A stretch of DNA of 64,000 nucleotides. It comes from the human T2T-CHM13v2.0 reference genome, Homo sapiens. The notes under the pieces were generated by a model, which was not told where the DNA came from, did no database searches, and was given only the letters and a program-made list of their open reading frames with translations. Shown here one piece after another: positions 1,973 to 64,000 of this stretch; positions within the stretch are counted from its first letter, which is position 1; the number at the start of each line of letters is the position of its first letter. The stretch lies in assembly GCF_009914755.1 (NCBI RefSeq), contig NC_060947.1. One strand, given 5' to 3'. Both the position numbers and the translations under genes were made by a program.

Positions 1973-3725
1973 TTTTTTTTCCTTGGATAGGCAATAGATT
2001 ATCATTTTATTATCTGATACAAATAAATAATAGGAAGTAGGGTGTGGGGAATGGAGTGAATTGACTTCATTGCTTTCTTGAAATCTGATTTTAGGACTTT
2101 TATAATAACCAAAAATAATGCTGTTAATACGTGGTACACTCAGACTGGTAAGCTCTTCTGTCAGATGTATGAGCAAGTCTGTGTGTTCAGATCTAATTAG
2201 ATACTATTTGATACTTTTAACACTATGCAGAGGTTCTAAAAATAAAAATAACATAGAAATCCTACGTTAATCATCAGATCATTTTTTAAATATTTAATTT
2301 AATTTAATTTTAAGTTCCAGGATACATGTGCAAGACCTGCAGGTTGTTACATAGTAAACATGTGCCATGGTGGTTTGCTGCACTTTTCAACCCATCACCT
2401 AGGTATTAAGGCCAGCATGCATTAGCTATTATTTTTTCTGATGCTCTACTTCTCCCGACCCCCAGAGAAGCCCCAGTGTGTGTTGTTCCCCTCACTGTGT
2501 GCATGTGTTCTCGTTGTTCAGCTCCCACATATAAGTGAGAACATGCAGTGTTTGGTTTTCCCGTGTTAGTTTGCTGAAGATAATGGCTTCCAGCTCCATC
2601 CATGTCCCTGCAAATGACGTGATCTTATTTCTTTTTATGGCTGCATAGTATTTGATGGCGTATATGTACCACATTTTCTTTATCCAGTCTATAATTGATG
2701 GACATTTGGGTTGATTCCACATCTCTACTACTGTGAATAGTGCTGCACTGAACATATGTGTGCATGTATCCCTATAATAGAATGGTTTATATTTTTTGGG
2801 TACATACCCACATATAAGATTGCTGGGTCAAATGGTATTTCTGGTTCTAGGTCTTTGAGGAATCATCACACTGTCTTCTACAATGGTTGAACTAATTTAA
2901 TTACCCGACTTCAAACTATACTACAAGGCTAAAGTAACCAAAACATCAGAGTACTGGTACGAAAACAGACACATAGACCAATGGAAAAGAACAGAGATCT
3001 CAGAAATAAGACCATACATCTACAACCATCTGATCTTTGACAAACCTGACAAAAACAAGTAATGGGGAAATTATTCCCTATTTAATAAATGGTGCTGGGA
3101 GAACCGGCTAGCCATAGTTAGAAAATGGAAACTTGACCCCTTCCTTACGCCTTATACAAAAATTAACTAAAGATGGATTAAAGACTTAAATGTAAAACCC
3201 AAAACTATAAAAACCATAGAAGAAAATCTAGGCAATACCATTCACAACATAGGCATGGGCAAAGATTTTATCATGAAAACATCAAAAGCAATTGCAACAA
3301 AAGCAAAAATTGAAAAGTGGGACCTAATTAAACTAACCAGCTTCTGCACAGTGAAAGATACTATAATCAGAGTGAACAGAAAACCTACAAAATGAGGTAA
3401 ACATTTTTGCAATCTATTTATCTGACAAAGGTCTAATATCCAGAATCTACAAGGAACTTAAACAACTTTACAAGAAAAAGAAAACCCATTAAAAAACAGG
3501 CAAAAGACATGAACAGACATTTCTCAAAAGATGACATTTATGTGGCCAGCAAACATATGAAAAAATGCTCAATATCACTGATTATTAGAGAAATGCAAAT
3601 CAAAACCATAATTAAATACCATCTTACACCAGTTAGATGGCACTTAGTAAAAAGTCAAGAAACAGCAGTTGCTGGCAAGGCTGTGGCTAAATAGGAACAC
3701 TTTTACACCGTTGATAGGAATGTAC
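1973..3725 (-). mobile_element. L1PA (PA7/8-like) with 5' inversion and ~310-bp 3' transduction
   Basis: Minus 3' part 2282-2900 and plus-oriented part 2901-3724 are contiguous in L1 coordinates (...ggaatgta | aattagttcaaccattg). Unique DNA 1981-2281 ends in AATAAA (minus, 2006-2011) and poly-T 1973-1980. Confidence 0.8.
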
Positions 3726-4652
3726 ATATTTTGATACATTCAGAAATGTGTAATGATCACATCAGGGTATTTAAGATATTAGTCATCTCAATCATTTATT
3801 ATTTCTTTGTGGAGTGAATATTTTAATTCTCTTGCAGTAATTTTGAAATATACAATAAATAATTATCATAATCAAACTACTGTCATATCAAACACAAAAT
3901 GTATTTCTTCTATCTAACTGCATGTTTATACTTGTTAACCAATCTCTTTATTCTCACTCCCCTCCAAACCTTCTCATTCCGTTAATAATCATTATTATCT
4001 CTACTACCATAAAACCAAATTTCTAAGTTCCCACATATCAATGCAAACATGCAATATTTTTCTGTGTCTGATTTGCTTCACTTAACATAATGACCTCCAA
4101 TTTACATCCATGTTGCTGTAGGGTTTCATACTTTTTAATGTCATAAATAGCATTCCATTGCATATACATATCATATTTTCATTATAGTTCATCCATCAAC
4201 AGACAGCGTGATTCCAGATCTTGACTATTGAAAATAGTGTTGCACTAAAATAGGGATAAAGGTGTCATTTTGATATGCTGATTTCCTTTTCTTTGGATAA
4301 AAACCAGTAATGGGATTGCCAGTTCACATGGTAGTGGTAGTTCTATTTTTAGTTATTTTGTGAAACCTGCATACTGTTTTTCATAATGGCTTTACTAATT
4401 TAAATTCCTATCAACAGTGTATAAGAGTTCCCCTTTCTCCACATCTTGCCAACATTTGTTATTTTTAGTCTTTTTGATAACAGCCATTTTAATGAGAGAT
4501 GATTCATCTTGGTTTTGATTTGCATTTCCCTGATAATAAATTATGTTGAGTATTTTTCAATATACCTGTTGGCCATTTGTATGTTTTCTTTTGAGAAATG
4601 TCTATTCAAATATTTTGCACACTTTTAATGGGAATTATTTTATTTATTACAT

Positions 4653-4684
<32 letters not shown>

Positions 4685-5774
4685 GCTGTTGAGTTGTGTG
4701 AGTTCCTTGTATATTCTAGATATTGGTCCATTGTTAGAAGAGTAAGTTGTAAATATTTTCCCCCATTATGTAGTTTGTCTTTTACTCTGTTAATTGTTTT
4801 ACTCTGTTCTAATTTCTTCTAAAACTAGAAGATTTTTAGTTTAATGTAATCACATTTGTCTATTTTTTGTTTGCCTGTGCTTTGGAAGACTCAGTCACAA
4901 AATCTTTGTCTAGACCAATGTCCTGAGGGTTTCCCCTATTTTCTTTCAGTAGTTTTAGAGGTTCAAGCCTTAGATTTAAGTTTTAATTCATTTTGTGTTG
5001 ATTTCTGTATAGGATGAAAAAAAGGGTCTAGTTTACCTTTTCTGCATGTAAATGGGTAGTTTTCTCAGAACCACTAATTGAAAAGGATGTCCTATTTCCG
5101 ATGTATATTTTTGGCAGTTTTGTCAAAAATCAGTTGGGCTGTAAATATGTGGATTTATTTCTGCGTATTTTATTCTGTTATATTGGTCTATGTGTCTGTA
5201 TTTATATCAATGCCATGCTGTTTTGATTACTATACTTTGTATATAGCTATAGCATACATACTACAATAGCTTTGTAATATATTTTGAAGTCAGGTAATCT
5301 GATGTTCAGGTTTATTTTTGTTTTTTCCCTAGATTTCATTTGCTATTTGGGGTTTTTGGTGGTTTCACATAAATCTTAGGATTCTTTTCCTATTACTGTA
5401 AGTAATTTCTTTCATATTTTTGAAAGTGATGGCATTCAGTCTGTAGATTGCTTGTGTAGTATGATTATTTTTATAATATTGATTCTGACCCATGAACATG
5501 GAATATCTTTCAATTTGTTTGTATCTTCTTCACTGTCTTTTATCAGTGTTTTGTAGTTTTCATTGTACAGGTCTTTCATCTCCTTTATTAAATGTATTAA
5601 TAGGTATTATTATTTTTGTAGATATTGTAAATGGAATTTTCTTGATTTTTCAGCTAGTTCTTTTTCAGTTAGTTAATAATGTATAAAAACGACAGATTTT
5701 TGTTACTGGTGTGTAGAAATGGTACCAATTTTATACATTGATTTAGTATGCTTGTTGTATAAGAATGCTACTGA

Positions 5775-6158
<384 letters not shown>

Positions 6159-7054
6159 TCATACAAGGTATTTTTGGTGGTCTTTAGGTTTTTCTTAATA
6201 TGTAATATCATTTTGTTTGCAAAAAGAGACAGTTTGTTTTTACTTCCATTATAAATGCCTTTGATTTCTTTCTCTTCCCTCATTACTTTGCTTGAGACTT
6301 CCAGTACTATGTTGAATAAAAGTGGTGAAAGTAGGCATTCCTTTCTTGCTTCAGCTCTTAGAGTAAAGGCTTTCAGTTTGTCTCTATTCAGTATGTTACC
6401 TGTGAGTTTATTATTTGAGAACTTTATTATGTTGAGTTTTGTTTTTTTCTATGCCTAATTTGTTAGAAGTTTCTTTTTAATCATGAAGTGATGTTGAATT
6501 GTATCAAATGCTTTCTCTGCATCTACTGAGATAATCATATGTTTGTCTCCTTTATTCTGTTCATATAAAGTATCACATTTACCTGTCTATGTTGAACTCT
6601 TCTTGAATCACTAAGATAAATCCCAGTTGATAATGGTGTATTATCTTTTTGATGTGTTGTTTTATTTGACTGATAGTTTTGAGATTTTTTTCATCTACAT
6701 TCATTGGGTGTATGAAACTGTAGTTTTTGTTGTTGTTGTTGTGTGTATGATTTTGGTTTCAGAATAGTGCTGGTCACATAGAAATGAGTTAAGAAGAATT
6801 CTCTTCTTTTTAATGTTTTGAAACGATTTGAGAAGAACTGGTATTATATCTTGTTTATAAATGTTATGGATTTCATCAGTAAAGCCATCTAATTCTGGGA
6901 TTTTCTTTGTTGGGAAAATTTTTATAGCTAATTCAATTTTTTATTCACTATTGATCTGTTTAGGTTTTCTATTTCTCCTTAGTAGAATCTTGCTAGGTTT
7001 TATGTGGTCAGGAATTCGTCCATTTTTCTAGGTGTTCTACTTTGTTAACATATA

Positions 7055-8846: not shown

Positions 8847-12197
<3,351 letters not shown>

Positions 12198-12539
12198 TGT
12201 ATTTTTGGTAAAAATAACAGCTAAAGCAATAACTTTGTATGAAAAAAATTTTGTATGGTAAATTTGTGTCCTAAACTAAAAGAACTGTTTTTGCTTTTTT
12301 TTAAAGAACATATAAGACAAAGCAAAATGTCTAAACATGTAACCAATGGTGATACAAGTTGTAATAAAGTTCATTAAAAATGTATTTAAAAAAATAAAAG
12401 AAAAAAATGATACAGTAAACTTTATTGTTATATTATAGAACCATGTTGTATACATGGTCTGTTTTTCACTAAAAGGTCATGTTGATACTTAACTGATAAT
12501 CCATTAACATGTGTTTTGTTTTGTTTTTTACTTTCCTTG

Positions 12540-32029: not shown

Positions 32030-34074
32030 TTAATGGGTTACGTTACAGGGTTGAGGTCAACCTACAGACACAAAATAGGTTAACTGAATTTGGTTTTTTT
32101 TTTTTCGTATCAGGTTTTAATTTTTTCATTGGAACAGGATTTGGGGGTGGGGATACTAAATGTGGCAGGGTTCAACAAATTTACATTTTATCAAAATAAG
32201 GTTCTTAAAGAGTACAATGATAGCATATGCTTTAATACTTATAGCACAAACCCTCATATTAATTGATGGTCACAGAAAAATACTGTAATGCTTTAAACAA
32301 AAGTCTTAAATTACATCAATGACACAAGTTTCAAACAAAATGCAGTGATCAAAATACTTAACTGTCCTTTCATCAAGCTTTTACAAACACAATCAGCCTT
32401 TGCTGTCTGAGCAAATCAGTTTTACTTTCTTCATGGTCCTCCATCTGTCTTTTAACATGACACTTGTCCGGTTGTTGAATTTATAATGCAACAGTATTTT
32501 AGACCAGTTTCCCTCTCCATATTTCCTCATGCCAGATCTCAAATTCTTGTCTTCTTCCCAAAGCCATGCCTGTCTTTTTCTAGCTCGATGTTTTTCAGGA
32601 GTTACCGGTTGACTCTTTGAAACAGGTATTCTGCTTTCAGTGGCTTTTCTGCTTTCTTTATTCTTTTTTGTACTTTGAAGAATTCCTATTCTTCTTTCTT
32701 TCTTATTAAGGTCTTGTTGCTCGGCTCCATGTTGCATCTTAGATAAGAAAAGATTCTTGTGAGACCTCAATAAGGATACTGTACCCTCTGAGGATTCAGT
32801 TACCGCAGACTGTTTGTCACTAACAATTTTTCTTGTATCCAAATTAGCTTCAGTTTCCATTTCAACATCATTACCATTAGGTTTATCTTGAGAAGTTAGT
32901 GTTCTTGTCCTTTTGCTTTCTACTACTTTTGCCACTGCCTTCATTAGAAAGGTTGATGATTTTTCACTTAGCACATAATTCACATAACTCTTAATTTTCT
33001 CCATCATGTGGTTGCAGCTGAAGTGTTGAAAAAAGGAATGAAATGTATCTTTCTGAGAGATTATCATAAGCAATTTGCTTTTCAAAGGCATATAAGAATT
33101 TGGATCACCAAATATTCTTTCAAAGACTTCTTCTGCTTCTTTAAAGTTGCCATTTTCCATACAGCTATAGCCTGAATTTTAATTAAATTCTGTATTTCTT
33201 CATGAAGTTTGTCATGTTCCTTTTCAATTGAACCCCAAATCATCAGGGCTGATTCCAAGGGTGTAATTCGTTCATCATTTTCAAATTGTGCATCAAGGGT
33301 TTTTCCTGCTGCAATTCTTGTCAAAAACTGACATATGTATATCGTTCTCAACTGGTAAGCTGTTAGACTGGATAGTCCATGAATAATAGCCTCTGCGCTG
33401 TTGCGGGTCCTGCGGAAGTCCTCCGAGCGGCCATCGCAGAAAGCTCAGCAAAGAGAGAGGCAGAGGAAATCGAGCATCCAGCCGGCAGCCACGGCCTCGG
33501 CCTCGGCCACTAGGCCCTCGTCCTCCTCCTCCTCCTGGGGGGCCCCCACCTGCACCTGGCACTCGAGCAGTTCCTGGCATTCGAACAGCTCCTCCTCGTT
33601 TCTCTCCGTTTCTGCCATCTCCTCCTCGGTAGGGTCGGCATCCCTACCATCCGCACAGACCCGTGGGCTCGGGGCCTGAAATCTTTGTATTTCTTATAAA
33701 ATACTCTAACAAGAATTATCTCTTCAGAGACCTTTTTTTTTTTTCTGTGATGGTTTAAATGTATCCCCCACCCAAATCATGTGTTGACAACTTAACTCCC
33801 AAAGCCACAGTATTGAGAGGTGAAAGCTTTAAGAGGTGATTAGGTCATGAGGGCTCTGCCCTCATATATACATTAATGCTATTATTGATGGAGTGGTCTC
33901 CTGATTAAAAAGATGTGTTTGTACAACTTTTCTCCTCTTTTGTGTGTGTGTGCTCCCCTGCCCTTCCTCCTTCTATCACAGAATGAATTATCAAGAACAC
34001 CCACACCCAATATGGGCCACCCAGCATTCAGAACTGTAAGAAATAGATTTCTGTTCTTTATAAATTGCTCAGTC

Positions 34075-40238
<6,164 letters not shown>

Positions 40239-40927
40239 AATTCAATCTCTAGCCAAAATGACCAATATTAGAAATTAGGGAAGATGTTGATAGTATTATG
40301 AAAGGGGCATTCAGAATACTGAGATCTTCTGCAAGCCACAGCCACCCTTCCTCATGAATCCCTGAGGATATAAACAGGGAATGCCGCAAGTTGCTGGCTG
40401 GGCTTTGTAGCCGGACACCACTGCCAATCGGAGGGTGATTCTGAACTGGATCACAAAGCCTGGGCTAGGCACTCATAATGAGCCTCTTCACAGTTCCTGG
40501 TCATCACCCCAAATTGTACTGCACTTTCGATGGCAACATAAAAGGAAGAAACCGGAAAAAAGGGAAATTGTCAGTGAATAAGAGCACCAGAGAGCCATAA
40601 GCCTTCTAAGCGAGCAGCCCCTGACTCAGCCAGCTGCCTTTGGTTCTGCATGGACCCTTGAGGAGAAAAGGAGCAAGCAAGCTCAACCAGCTTCCAACCA
40701 ATGAGCTAGAGGTTATGCTGGAATCCAATAAGCCCACAGTCACTTGTGAGGGGTGGTAGTCAAGGTGTGGGGTGGAAAATGGAACATTCCTACTCTAAAG
40801 CCTGCAGATGACAATCAGAATGGACAAAGAGTAAGGAATTCCTTTTTGGGATTTGCAAAGCACTGTGTATATTTATACATTGAAGTTATTTACAACAACA
40901 ACAAAAAATAAATAAATAAATAATTAA
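40239..40927 (+). other. L1 3'-transduced unique sequence (~650 bp) with second A-rich tail
   Basis: Non-repeat DNA between the L1 poly-A and a second (CAA)n/(TAAA)n tail, inside the L1 TSDs and inside a split LTR. Confidence 0.9.
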
Positions 40928-59900: not shown

Positions 59901-60154
59901 TCATGAATAAGCCCACGAAATGCATTCTTTATTTCTTTTTTATTTTTCTAGTCACTTATATTTCTTTTTTTAATAAATTTTATATGAACTTTATTACAAC
60001 TTGTACTGACCATTGATTACGTTTAGACATTTTGCTTTGTCTTAAACTTTCTTTAAACAAAAACAGCTATTTTAGTTTAGAACAAAAACTAACCAGACAT
60101 TTTTTAACACAAAATTATTGTTTTACATTCATTGAATTTATTGGTTTGTGTTTT

Positions 60155-64000
<3,846 letters not shown>

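What the first reader, a model, noticed from the sequence alone, without database searches (positions are those of the whole stretch)
12198..12401. Same polyadenylated non-L1 tail behind two different L1s, 48 kb apart
Seen: 12227-12390 (+) is homologous to ~59965-60120 (-). Exact blocks are taagacaaagcaaaatgtctaaac (12313-12336 / 60021-60044) and tacaagttgtaataaagttcat (12353-12374 / 59984-60005). Each copy lies just after an L1 A-tail, in the L1's sense, and ends in an A-run about 20 nt after the same AATAAA. The carriers differ (L1PA3-like or the mini-L1PB here; PA7-like there) and the copies are clearly diverged. It loosely resembles ERV1 (MER4-group) internal sequence, low confidence. Inference: a recurrently captured poly(A)-signal module carried by several L1 source elements, or an unrecognised short retroposed RNA family that lands in L1 tails.
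Basis: partly seen in the sequence, partly recalled or inferred. Interest (0 to 1): 0.8.

Follow-up and report, generated by a model that had tools for sequence, protein, structure and literature searches.

The report
Two L1 tails copied from chr9
Two short non-L1 tails behind two different L1 elements on the X chromosome are RNA-made copies of the last 200-250 bases before one polyadenylation site on chromosome 9: an ordinary by-product of L1 activity, odd only because it happened twice and landed 48 kb apart.

Summary
Window 12195-12387 (+) and 59972-60157 (-) are homologous (E 5.9e-36 genome-wide). Each follows a complete L1 3' end in L1 sense and ends in an A-run 19-20 nt after AATAAA.

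It is not a repeat family. The whole assembly holds one other copy, on chr9 at 113671360-113671610 (-). It is 95% identical to copy 1 and 81% to copy 2.

The chr9 copy is the parent. It has no L1 within 10 kb and no A-tail. It runs on into a GU-rich element after the cleavage point. On both sides it stays colinear with an old dispersed repeat, possibly ERV-internal.

The two X copies are independent RNA-mediated copies of different age (ratio about 3), and each age matches its L1 carrier. Copy 2 lies inside the 11-nt target-site duplication of a twin-primed L1.

Best reading: two separate L1 events each carried the chr9 3' end along, as a 3' transduction from L1 alleles that never fixed on chr9. 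The rivals are an RT template switch and a later insertion into the L1 A-tail.

No model explains the 47.6-kb proximity (chance about 3e-5). This is a known kind of event, and interest is low to moderate.

The parts
10301..12176 (+). Carrier L1 no. 1: a 5'-truncated young L1PA element, inserted into the 3' tail of an older L1PB-like fragment that ends at about 10300
   Evidence: 95.7% identical over 1902 nt to positions 4336-6237 of the stretch 34001-40400 that holds the window's full-length L1. Its last 471 nt differ at 11 of 471 sites (2.3%) from the majority of its 29 nearest genomic relatives. The 5' junction was read.
12177..12197 (+). The A/T-rich (TAAAA)n-type end of L1 no. 1; there is almost no pure A-run before the chr9-derived sequence
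   Evidence: Compared with the 3' ends of 29 related L1s, which end in the same TAAAA-type repeats followed by short A-runs.
12195..12387 (+). Tail copy 1: a retrocopy of the last ~200 nt before the chr9 poly(A) site (the start is ambiguous within 12195-12198)
   Evidence: 95.0% identical over 199 nt to chr9 113671360-113671558 (minus strand); three-way alignment.
12363..12368 (+). AATAAA poly(A) signal of copy 1
   Evidence: 19 nt before the A-run.
12388..12407 (+). A-rich run (A7 T A4 G A7): the tail's poly(A), plus a possible short target-site duplication and a remnant of the older L1's tail
   Evidence: The chr9 parent has only 5 A here and then a T/GU-rich stretch.
60176..62466 (-). Carrier L1 no. 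2, 3' segment (an older L1PA)
   Evidence: 86.6% identical to positions 3909-6237 of the stretch 34001-40400 that holds the full-length L1. Its last 471 nt differ at 20 of 469 sites (4.3%) from the majority of its 20 nearest relatives.
62458..64000 (+). Carrier L1 no. 2, 5' segment in inverted orientation (twin-priming structure); it continues to 64165, outside the window
   Evidence: 86.5% identical to positions 2216-3903 of the same stretch, on the opposite strand (using the extra 8 kb fetched).
60151..60175 (-). A/T-rich tail of L1 no. 2
59972..60157 (-). Tail copy 2: a retrocopy of the last ~232-251 nt before the same chr9 poly(A) site, with an internal deletion of ~35-41 nt and three small deletions
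   Evidence: 81.3% identical over 171 nt plus 82.1% over 56 nt to chr9; alignments. Its best genome hits are chr9 and copy 1, and nothing is closer.
59990..59995 (-). AATAAA poly(A) signal of copy 2
59933..59971 (-). A7 run followed by an odd 32-nt A-rich stretch that lies between the tail and the target-site duplication
   Evidence: not explained.
59922..59932 (-). 3' copy of the 11-nt target-site duplication ATAAAGAATGC; the 5' copy lies at 64179-64169, just outside the window and directly next to the inverted L1 segment
   Evidence: It is the only shared word of 9 nt or more between the two flanks, and the coordinates were confirmed. It encloses L1 no. 2 together with the tail.

Best explanation
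Each tail is a reverse-transcribed copy of the 3' end of an RNA that was cleaved and polyadenylated at one site on chr9. That site has AATAAA at 113671389-113671384 (minus strand), cleavage at about 113671360-364 and a T/GU-rich element just after it. Copy 1 covers the last ~200 nt and copy 2 the last ~232-251 nt.

In each case the piece entered the X chromosome in the same L1 retrotransposition event as the L1 in front of it. The most likely route is a 3' transduction. An L1 allele sat for a time at an A-run in the AT-rich chr9 sequence. It was transcribed through its own weak terminator to this strong poly(A) site. It produced the X-linked offspring and was then lost from the population without fixing. 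This happened twice, with L1s of two eras.

Shown: RNA-mediated origin from the chr9 site, two independent events of different age, and enclosure of copy 2 within the L1's target-site duplication. Inferred: that an L1 once sat on chr9.
For: 1. Single parent. Genome-wide there are only three copies.
2. chr9 is the parent.
   - It has no A-tail after the cleavage point.
   - It is colinear with an old repeat family on both sides of the copied piece. Of 27 family loci, 17 align >=30 nt past the cleavage point and 21 start upstream of -262.
3. Both X copies stop at the same base, 19-20 nt after AATAAA, and go on as A-runs.
4. The events are independent and differ in age. In 153 ungapped core columns, 131 are identical, 16 are unique to copy 2, 3 unique to copy 1, 2 unique to chr9 and 1 differs in all three. 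This gives an age ratio of about 3.2, with rT1 about 2% and rT2 about 6.4% (my arithmetic).
5. Ages match the carriers: carrier 1 is 2.3% diverged and carrier 2 is at least 4.3%.
6. The 11-nt duplication ATAAAGAATGC flanks the twin-primed L1 no. 2 plus its tail.
7. The chr9 region has no CpG island within 10 kb either side, is 24% GC locally and has no L1PA or Alu within 10 kb upstream. An L1's own promoter would therefore be a natural source of the transcript.
8. The 5' limits of the copies fall at TT/AAAAAA and AT/AAAAA in chr9. These are L1-endonuclease-type sites, and the copied part starts with the A-run, as the 3' target-site duplication of a source L1 would.
9. Established knowledge (recalled): 3' transductions occur in roughly 10-20% of L1 insertions, and most active L1s are unfixed.
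Against: - The chr9 allele in this assembly has no L1 at or near either junction, and it is colinear with the old repeat across both. Two different unfixed source L1s, about 50 nt apart and of two eras, must therefore be assumed.
- Copy 1 has almost no pure A-run between the L1 end and the chr9 sequence.
- The target-site duplication of copy 1 is ambiguous, at best 6 nt (AAATAA).
- The A-run junctions would also be expected from template switching or microhomology. A-runs occur every 30-40 nt in this sequence, so point 8 above is weak.
- The age estimates rest on few substitutions (3, 2 and 16) and the intervals are wide.
- Nothing explains why both copies lie 47.6 kb apart. The uniform-genome chance is 3.1e-5.
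Confidence: 0.45

Rival explanations
1. Later, separate insertion. Each L1 inserted first. Afterwards a 5'-truncated retrocopy of a chr9 RNA (or an orphan transduction) was inserted by the L1 machinery into the L1's A/T-rich tail in the same orientation. Such tails contain TTAAAA-type endonuclease sites.
For: - Both L1 tails contain TTAAAA next to the junction.
- A nested insertion into the tail would also lie inside the L1's target-site duplication, so one search does not exclude it.
- Low-complexity words that could serve as a second duplication exist on both sides of each tail: AAAATAAA around copy 1 and AAAAATAAA around copy 2 (read).
- The odd 32 nt after copy 2 could be the rest of the L1's own tail.
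Against: - Tail ages are as old as the carriers rather than younger. For copy 2, rT2 is about 6.4% against 4.3% for its carrier. Under 'younger than the carrier' about 10 copy-2-unique sites or fewer are expected where 16 are seen, roughly P 0.05 (my arithmetic).
- It needs a polyadenylated RNA from a region with no promoter-like feature within 10 kb.
- That RNA would have made only two retrocopies, and both would have landed in L1 tails.
- The candidate second duplications are low-complexity and expected by chance.
Confidence: 0.25
2. Template-switch chimera. During target-primed reverse transcription, ORF2p first copied the poly(A) end of a chr9 RNA. At an A-run the T-rich cDNA end re-annealed to the A-rich 3' end of the L1 RNA and synthesis continued on L1. 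This gives L1 - A/T-rich joint - chr9 3' end - poly(A) in one event.
For: - It has the same structural support as the best explanation: one duplication around L1 plus tail, ages equal to the carriers and junctions at A-runs.
- It needs no L1 on chr9, which matches the L1-free parent.
- It explains the near absence of a pure A-run at the copy 1 joint.
- Chimeric L1 insertions made by template switching or RNA ligation are documented (PMC13174262; outline, passages and sections 23 and 39 read).
Against: - The documented chimeras have the partner RNA 5' of the L1. The catalogue in PMC13174262 only defined insertions 5' of LINE-1, so the polarity seen here is not covered there.
- It needs an L1-independent chr9 RNA in two eras from a region without promoter features.
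- No plain, non-chimeric retrocopy of that RNA exists.
Confidence: 0.2
3. One reading: a short retroposed RNA family, or a poly(A) module inherited along L1 source lineages.
For: Two copies sit behind L1s with the same 3' end.
Against: - There are only two copies plus an L1-free parent in 3.1 Gb.
- If the tail were inherited along one L1 lineage, both copies would be equally distant from chr9. Instead copy 1 is 95% and copy 2 is 81% identical to chr9.
- Carrier 2 is twin-primed and 5'-inverted, so it could not have been a source.
Confidence: 0.03
4. DNA-level origin: local duplication or gene conversion between the two X copies or with chr9.
For: Proximity of the two copies (47.6 kb).
Against: - Homology ends exactly at the cleavage point and is replaced by A-runs.
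- The flanks and carriers are unrelated.
- A BLAST of 20 kb of chr9 against the window finds nothing else shared except Alus and one weak old repeat.
Confidence: 0.02

Closest known systems
L1 3' transduction (read-through of the L1 terminator into flanking DNA; described by Moran, Goodier, Pickeral and others, recalled, not read here)
   Same: - Non-L1 sequence sits directly behind a complete L1 3' end and A-rich tail, in the same orientation.
- It ends at a downstream AATAAA with a second poly(A).
- It is 200-250 nt long.
- A unique parent locus elsewhere continues past the poly(A) site.
- One target-site duplication surrounds L1 plus tail (copy 2).
   Different: - The parent locus carries no L1 in this assembly.
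- Two L1s of different age carry overlapping pieces that start about 50 nt apart.
- The two offspring lie 47.6 kb apart.
Chimeric L1 insertions by template switching or RNA ligation (U6/L1, Alu/L1, mRNA/L1; Law and Burns 2026, PMC13174262, passages read; Buzdin and others, recalled)
   Same: Copies of two different RNAs are fused in the same orientation inside one target-site duplication, with an endonuclease-type target and a poly(A) end.
   Different: In the described classes the partner RNA lies 5' of the L1. Here the partner is 3' of the L1, so it would have been copied first.
5'-truncated processed retrocopy or orphan transduction inserted into an existing A-tail
   Same: A short poly(A)-ended copy of the 3' end of a single-locus RNA, lying in the sense orientation within an A/T-rich tail that holds TTAAAA sites.
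   Different: The ages equal those of the carriers. Both known copies lie in L1 tails. No gene or promoter is evident at the parent.

Membership tests
L1 3' transduction | Non-L1 sequence directly 3' of a complete L1 3' end and its A-rich tail, in L1 sense | tested here: met
L1 3' transduction | The extra sequence ends at its own poly(A) signal and is followed by a second A-run | tested here: met
   AATAAA lies 19-20 nt before the A-run in both copies. The parent continues with a T/GU-rich stretch instead of A.
L1 3' transduction | One target-site duplication flanks L1 plus the extra sequence | tested here: inconclusive
   Met for copy 2 (11-nt ATAAAGAATGC). Ambiguous for copy 1 (at best 6 nt). 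This feature does not exclude a nested insertion into the tail.
L1 3' transduction | A single parent locus holds the same sequence as ordinary genomic DNA | tested here: met
   chr9 113671360-113671610
L1 3' transduction | A source L1 lies immediately upstream of the sequence at the parent locus | tested here: not met
   No L1 within 10 kb either side in this assembly, and the old repeat is colinear across both junctions. An unfixed, lost source allele cannot be tested with these tools. The finding therefore works like a 3' transduction, but membership is unproven.
Template-switch chimeric retrocopy | Copies of two different RNAs fused in the same orientation within one target-site duplication | tested here: met
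   Copy 2. Copy 1: orientation met, duplication ambiguous.
Template-switch chimeric retrocopy | Both parts arrive at the same time in the species tree | not testable with these tools
   No primate genomes are held. There is only indirect age agreement.
Interspersed repeat or retroposed RNA family | Many dispersed copies sharing the same 3' end and poly(A) | tested here: not met
   Two copies only. The 27 weaker relatives belong to an older repeat that runs on past this point in 17 of 27 loci.
ERV1 internal sequence (identity of the parent repeat) | Retroviral gag/pol/env coding remnants adjoining the repeat in the same orientation | tested here: inconclusive
   0 of 6 ORFs matched Pfam at E <= 0.01. 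At E <= 10 there were sub-threshold matches to zf-CCHC (E 0.025, 15.1 bits against a cut-off of 20.8) and MLVIN_C (E 0.082). A C-X2-C-X4-H-X4-C motif is seen by eye in one locus.

The most novel reading that the evidence does not exclude
The recurrence is not chance. One L1-free, AT-rich 250-nt stretch on chr9 with a strong poly(A) site has twice, tens of millions of years apart (inferred from the divergences), been joined to the 3' end of L1 RNA, and both products landed 47.6 kb apart on the X. This would point to one of two things. Either a cellular poly(A) RNA has a specific tendency to recombine with L1 RNA on its 3' side, by A-run-guided template switching, as a 3'-side counterpart of U6/L1 chimeras. 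Or there is some non-random link between a launch site and a landing region.
Probability: 0.1. Interest if true: 0.6.

Novelty: new member of a known kind. Interest (0 to 1): 0.28.

Why it matters
- It resolves an apparent new repeat family into two L1-mediated copies of one chr9 poly(A) site. The finding should therefore not be carried forward as a new element.
- It is a clean worked example of an L1 tail whose parent locus lacks an L1. A census of such tails genome-wide would show how often unfixed source L1s, or 3'-side template switches, contributed to L1 cargo. The published chimera catalogue read here looked only at the 5' side of L1 (PMC13174262, section 39).
- The double hit from one 250-nt parent and the 47.6-kb proximity remain a curiosity. 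They could be settled quickly with primate alignments.

Tried and rejected
- **Is the old repeat the 3' UTR of an ancient L1?** A tblastn of the three reading frames of carrier L1 no. 1 (window 10303-11950, stops read as X) against 27 family loci hit only 2, and both looked incidental. Rejected.
- **Naming the old repeat:** Pfam gave 0 of 6 ORFs at E <= 0.01 and only sub-threshold hits at E <= 10. Left unnamed.
- **Finding a gene at the chr9 parent:**
  - There is no ORF suggestive of an exon within 10 kb and no CpG island.
  - A BRE1-family search, meant to place a neighbouring gene, found nothing on chr9.
  - Anchors come from a Lig_chan exon at C9:113844853-113845179 and aldolase exons at C9:113596812-113601942.
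  - By recalled hg38 positions only, these place the parent at about hg38 chr9:101.50 Mb, between PGAP4 and RNF20. This is unverified.
- **Single capture inherited along an L1 lineage:** rejected by the site patterns.
- **Local duplication:** rejected.
- **Target-site duplication of copy 1:** no exact shared word of 9 nt or more. Left open.
- **Literature:** the searches for parent loci without L1 gave nothing usable. Searches were format errors that I corrected and re-sent.
- **Loci for the relatives of carrier 2:** Twenty short stretches were fetched instead.

Full report
**1.

- Window 12195-12387 (+) and 59972-60157 (-) are homologous. The pairwise alignment gives 83% mean column identity.
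- In a search of the whole 3.1-Gb assembly the two copies find each other at E about 6e-36.
- With up to 3 mismatches allowed, only three places in the genome match either block with <=1 mismatch. Block 1 gave 14 matches in all against 9 for the reversed control. Block 2 gave 63 against 164.
- Each copy follows a complete L1 3' end and an A/T-rich tail in L1 sense. Each ends in an A-run 19-20 nt after AATAAA.

**2. There is a single parent, on chr9**

- The third place is chr9 113671360-113671610 on the minus strand. It is 95.0% identical to copy 1 over 199 nt. It is 81.3% and 82.1% identical to copy 2 over 171 and 56 nt.
- Searching with copy 2 finds nothing closer than chr9 and copy 1, both 81%. 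The next hit is 78% and partial.
- At chr9 the sequence does not end in an A-tail. After 5 A it continues with a T/GU-rich stretch, which together with the AATAAA makes a good cleavage and polyadenylation site.
- A BLAST of 20 kb of chr9 against the whole window shares only Alus, the tail itself and one weak old repeat. The window is 45.6% L1-like. So there is no L1 within 10 kb on either side of the chr9 site.

**3. The chr9 copy is an in-situ member of an old dispersed repeat**

- The 27 weaker hits (70-89% identity) are all colinear with chr9 (27 of 27).
- In 17 of 27 the homology runs >=30 nt past the cleavage point. In 21 of 27 it starts upstream of -262.
- So the copied piece is internal to the repeat, only the two X copies stop at the poly(A) site, and the direction of copying is chr9 to X.
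- The family could not be named. It is not the 3' UTR of an L1, since tblastn hit only 2 of 27 loci and both hits looked incidental.
- The hints of a gammaretroviral context are sub-threshold.

**4. Two independent events of different age**

- Copy 1 starts at chr9 about -200 from the cleavage point. Copy 2 starts at about -232 to -251 and lacks about 35-41 nt that copy 1 has.
- In 153 ungapped core columns, 131 are identical, 16 are unique to copy 2, 3 unique to copy 1, 2 unique to chr9 and 1 differs in all three.
- If copy 1 left chr9 at time T1 and copy 2 at time T2, this gives rT1 about 2%, rT2 about 6.4% and T2/T1 about 3.2. This is my arithmetic and the intervals are wide.
- A tail inherited along one L1 lineage would make both copies equally distant from chr9. 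That is not seen.

**5. The carriers**

- Carrier 1 (10301-12176) is a 5'-truncated young L1. It is 95.7% identical to the window's full-length L1 and 2.3% diverged (11 of 471 sites) from the majority of its 29 nearest relatives. It sits in the tail of an older L1PB-like fragment.
- Carrier 2 is an older L1 with a twin-priming inversion. Window 60152-62466 (-) matches positions 3909-6237 of the stretch 34001-40400, which holds the full-length L1. Window 62458-64165 (+) matches positions 2216-3903 of the same stretch.
- Carrier 2 is 4.3% diverged (20 of 469 sites) from the majority of its 20 nearest relatives. This is a lower bound, because the relatives were chosen for similarity.
- The 11-nt duplication ATAAAGAATGC lies directly beside the inverted segment (64179-64169) and again after the tail (59932-59922). 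It therefore encloses the L1 together with the tail.
- For copy 1 no duplication longer than 6 nt could be found.
I could only rank the ages.

**6. Mechanism**

The RNA-mediated origin from the chr9 poly(A) site is shown directly. Three routes fit the structure.

- *(a) 3' transduction from L1 alleles that once sat at the A-runs on chr9 and were lost.*
  - This is the common, established way for such tails to arise (recalled).
  - It supplies a promoter in a region that has none. There is no CpG island within 10 kb and GC is 24% locally.
  - It fits the junctions at TT/AAAAAA and AT/AAAAA.
  - It requires two unfixed sources about 50 nt apart in two eras.
- *(b) Template switch from a chr9 RNA to the L1 RNA at an A-run.*
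  - It needs no L1 on chr9 and explains the missing A-run at the copy 1 joint.
  - The partner lies on the 3' side of the L1. The catalogue I read does not cover that polarity, because it surveyed only the 5' side of L1 (PMC13174262).
- *(c) Later insertion of a truncated retrocopy into the L1 tail.*
  - The target-site duplication does not exclude this.
  - The tails are not younger than their carriers, which counts mildly against it.
- I put these at 0.45, 0.20 and 0.25.

**7. What stays unexplained**

- The only two retrocopies in the assembly lie 47,574 nt apart. The uniform-genome chance is 3.1e-5, perhaps 2-3 times higher because the window is 45.6% L1-like.
- Across all sibling retrocopies in a genome, about one such pair may be expected by chance. 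This is my rough estimate and was not computed.
- A window-by-window reader can only notice pairs this close. I therefore treat the proximity as a probable coincidence and flag it.
- The 32-nt odd A-rich stretch after copy 2 is also unexplained.

**8. Verdict**

The finding is real. It is an instance of a known kind of L1 cargo, not a new element family. Primate alignments and 3'-end RNA data would settle the route.

Noticed in passing
window 60152-64000, continuing to 64165 in L033: Carrier L1 no. 2 has a textbook twin-priming structure. The 3' segment and an inverted 5' segment meet at positions 3903/3909 of the stretch 34001-40400 (which holds the full-length L1), with a 9-nt overlap in the window, and the whole is flanked by an 11-nt target-site duplication.
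   Followed up: yes
window 34108-40248 (+): A full-length young L1 of about 6.1 kb. I used it as the coordinate reference, but its reading frames were not examined.
   Followed up: no
window 9605-10300 (+): An old L1PB-like fragment with an internal deletion (end of ORF2 joined to the end of the 3' UTR). The young L1 no. 1 is inserted into its tail.
   Followed up: partly
L031 7514-8900 (chr9 113668913-113670299): A long AT-rich minisatellite array about 1-2.4 kb downstream of the chr9 parent site. It showed up as 209-460-aa repetitive open frames.
   Followed up: no
chr9 113661400-113681400 (L031, L032): This 20-kb stretch is 30% GC, yet a BLAST against the L1-rich window finds no L1 of any age in it. 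That is unusual for such AT-rich DNA.
   Followed up: partly
window 59933-59964 (-): A 32-nt A-rich stretch with a non-A core lies between the tail's A-run and the target-site duplication. It could be a decayed poly(A), the remainder of the L1's own tail, or a further short captured piece.
   Followed up: partly
L009, L010, L013, L014, L016, L029 (old repeat family): In six family members the shared sequence switches, about 33-50 nt before the position of the chr9 cleavage site, to a different common 3' continuation. This may be a subfamily or an LTR junction.
   Followed up: no
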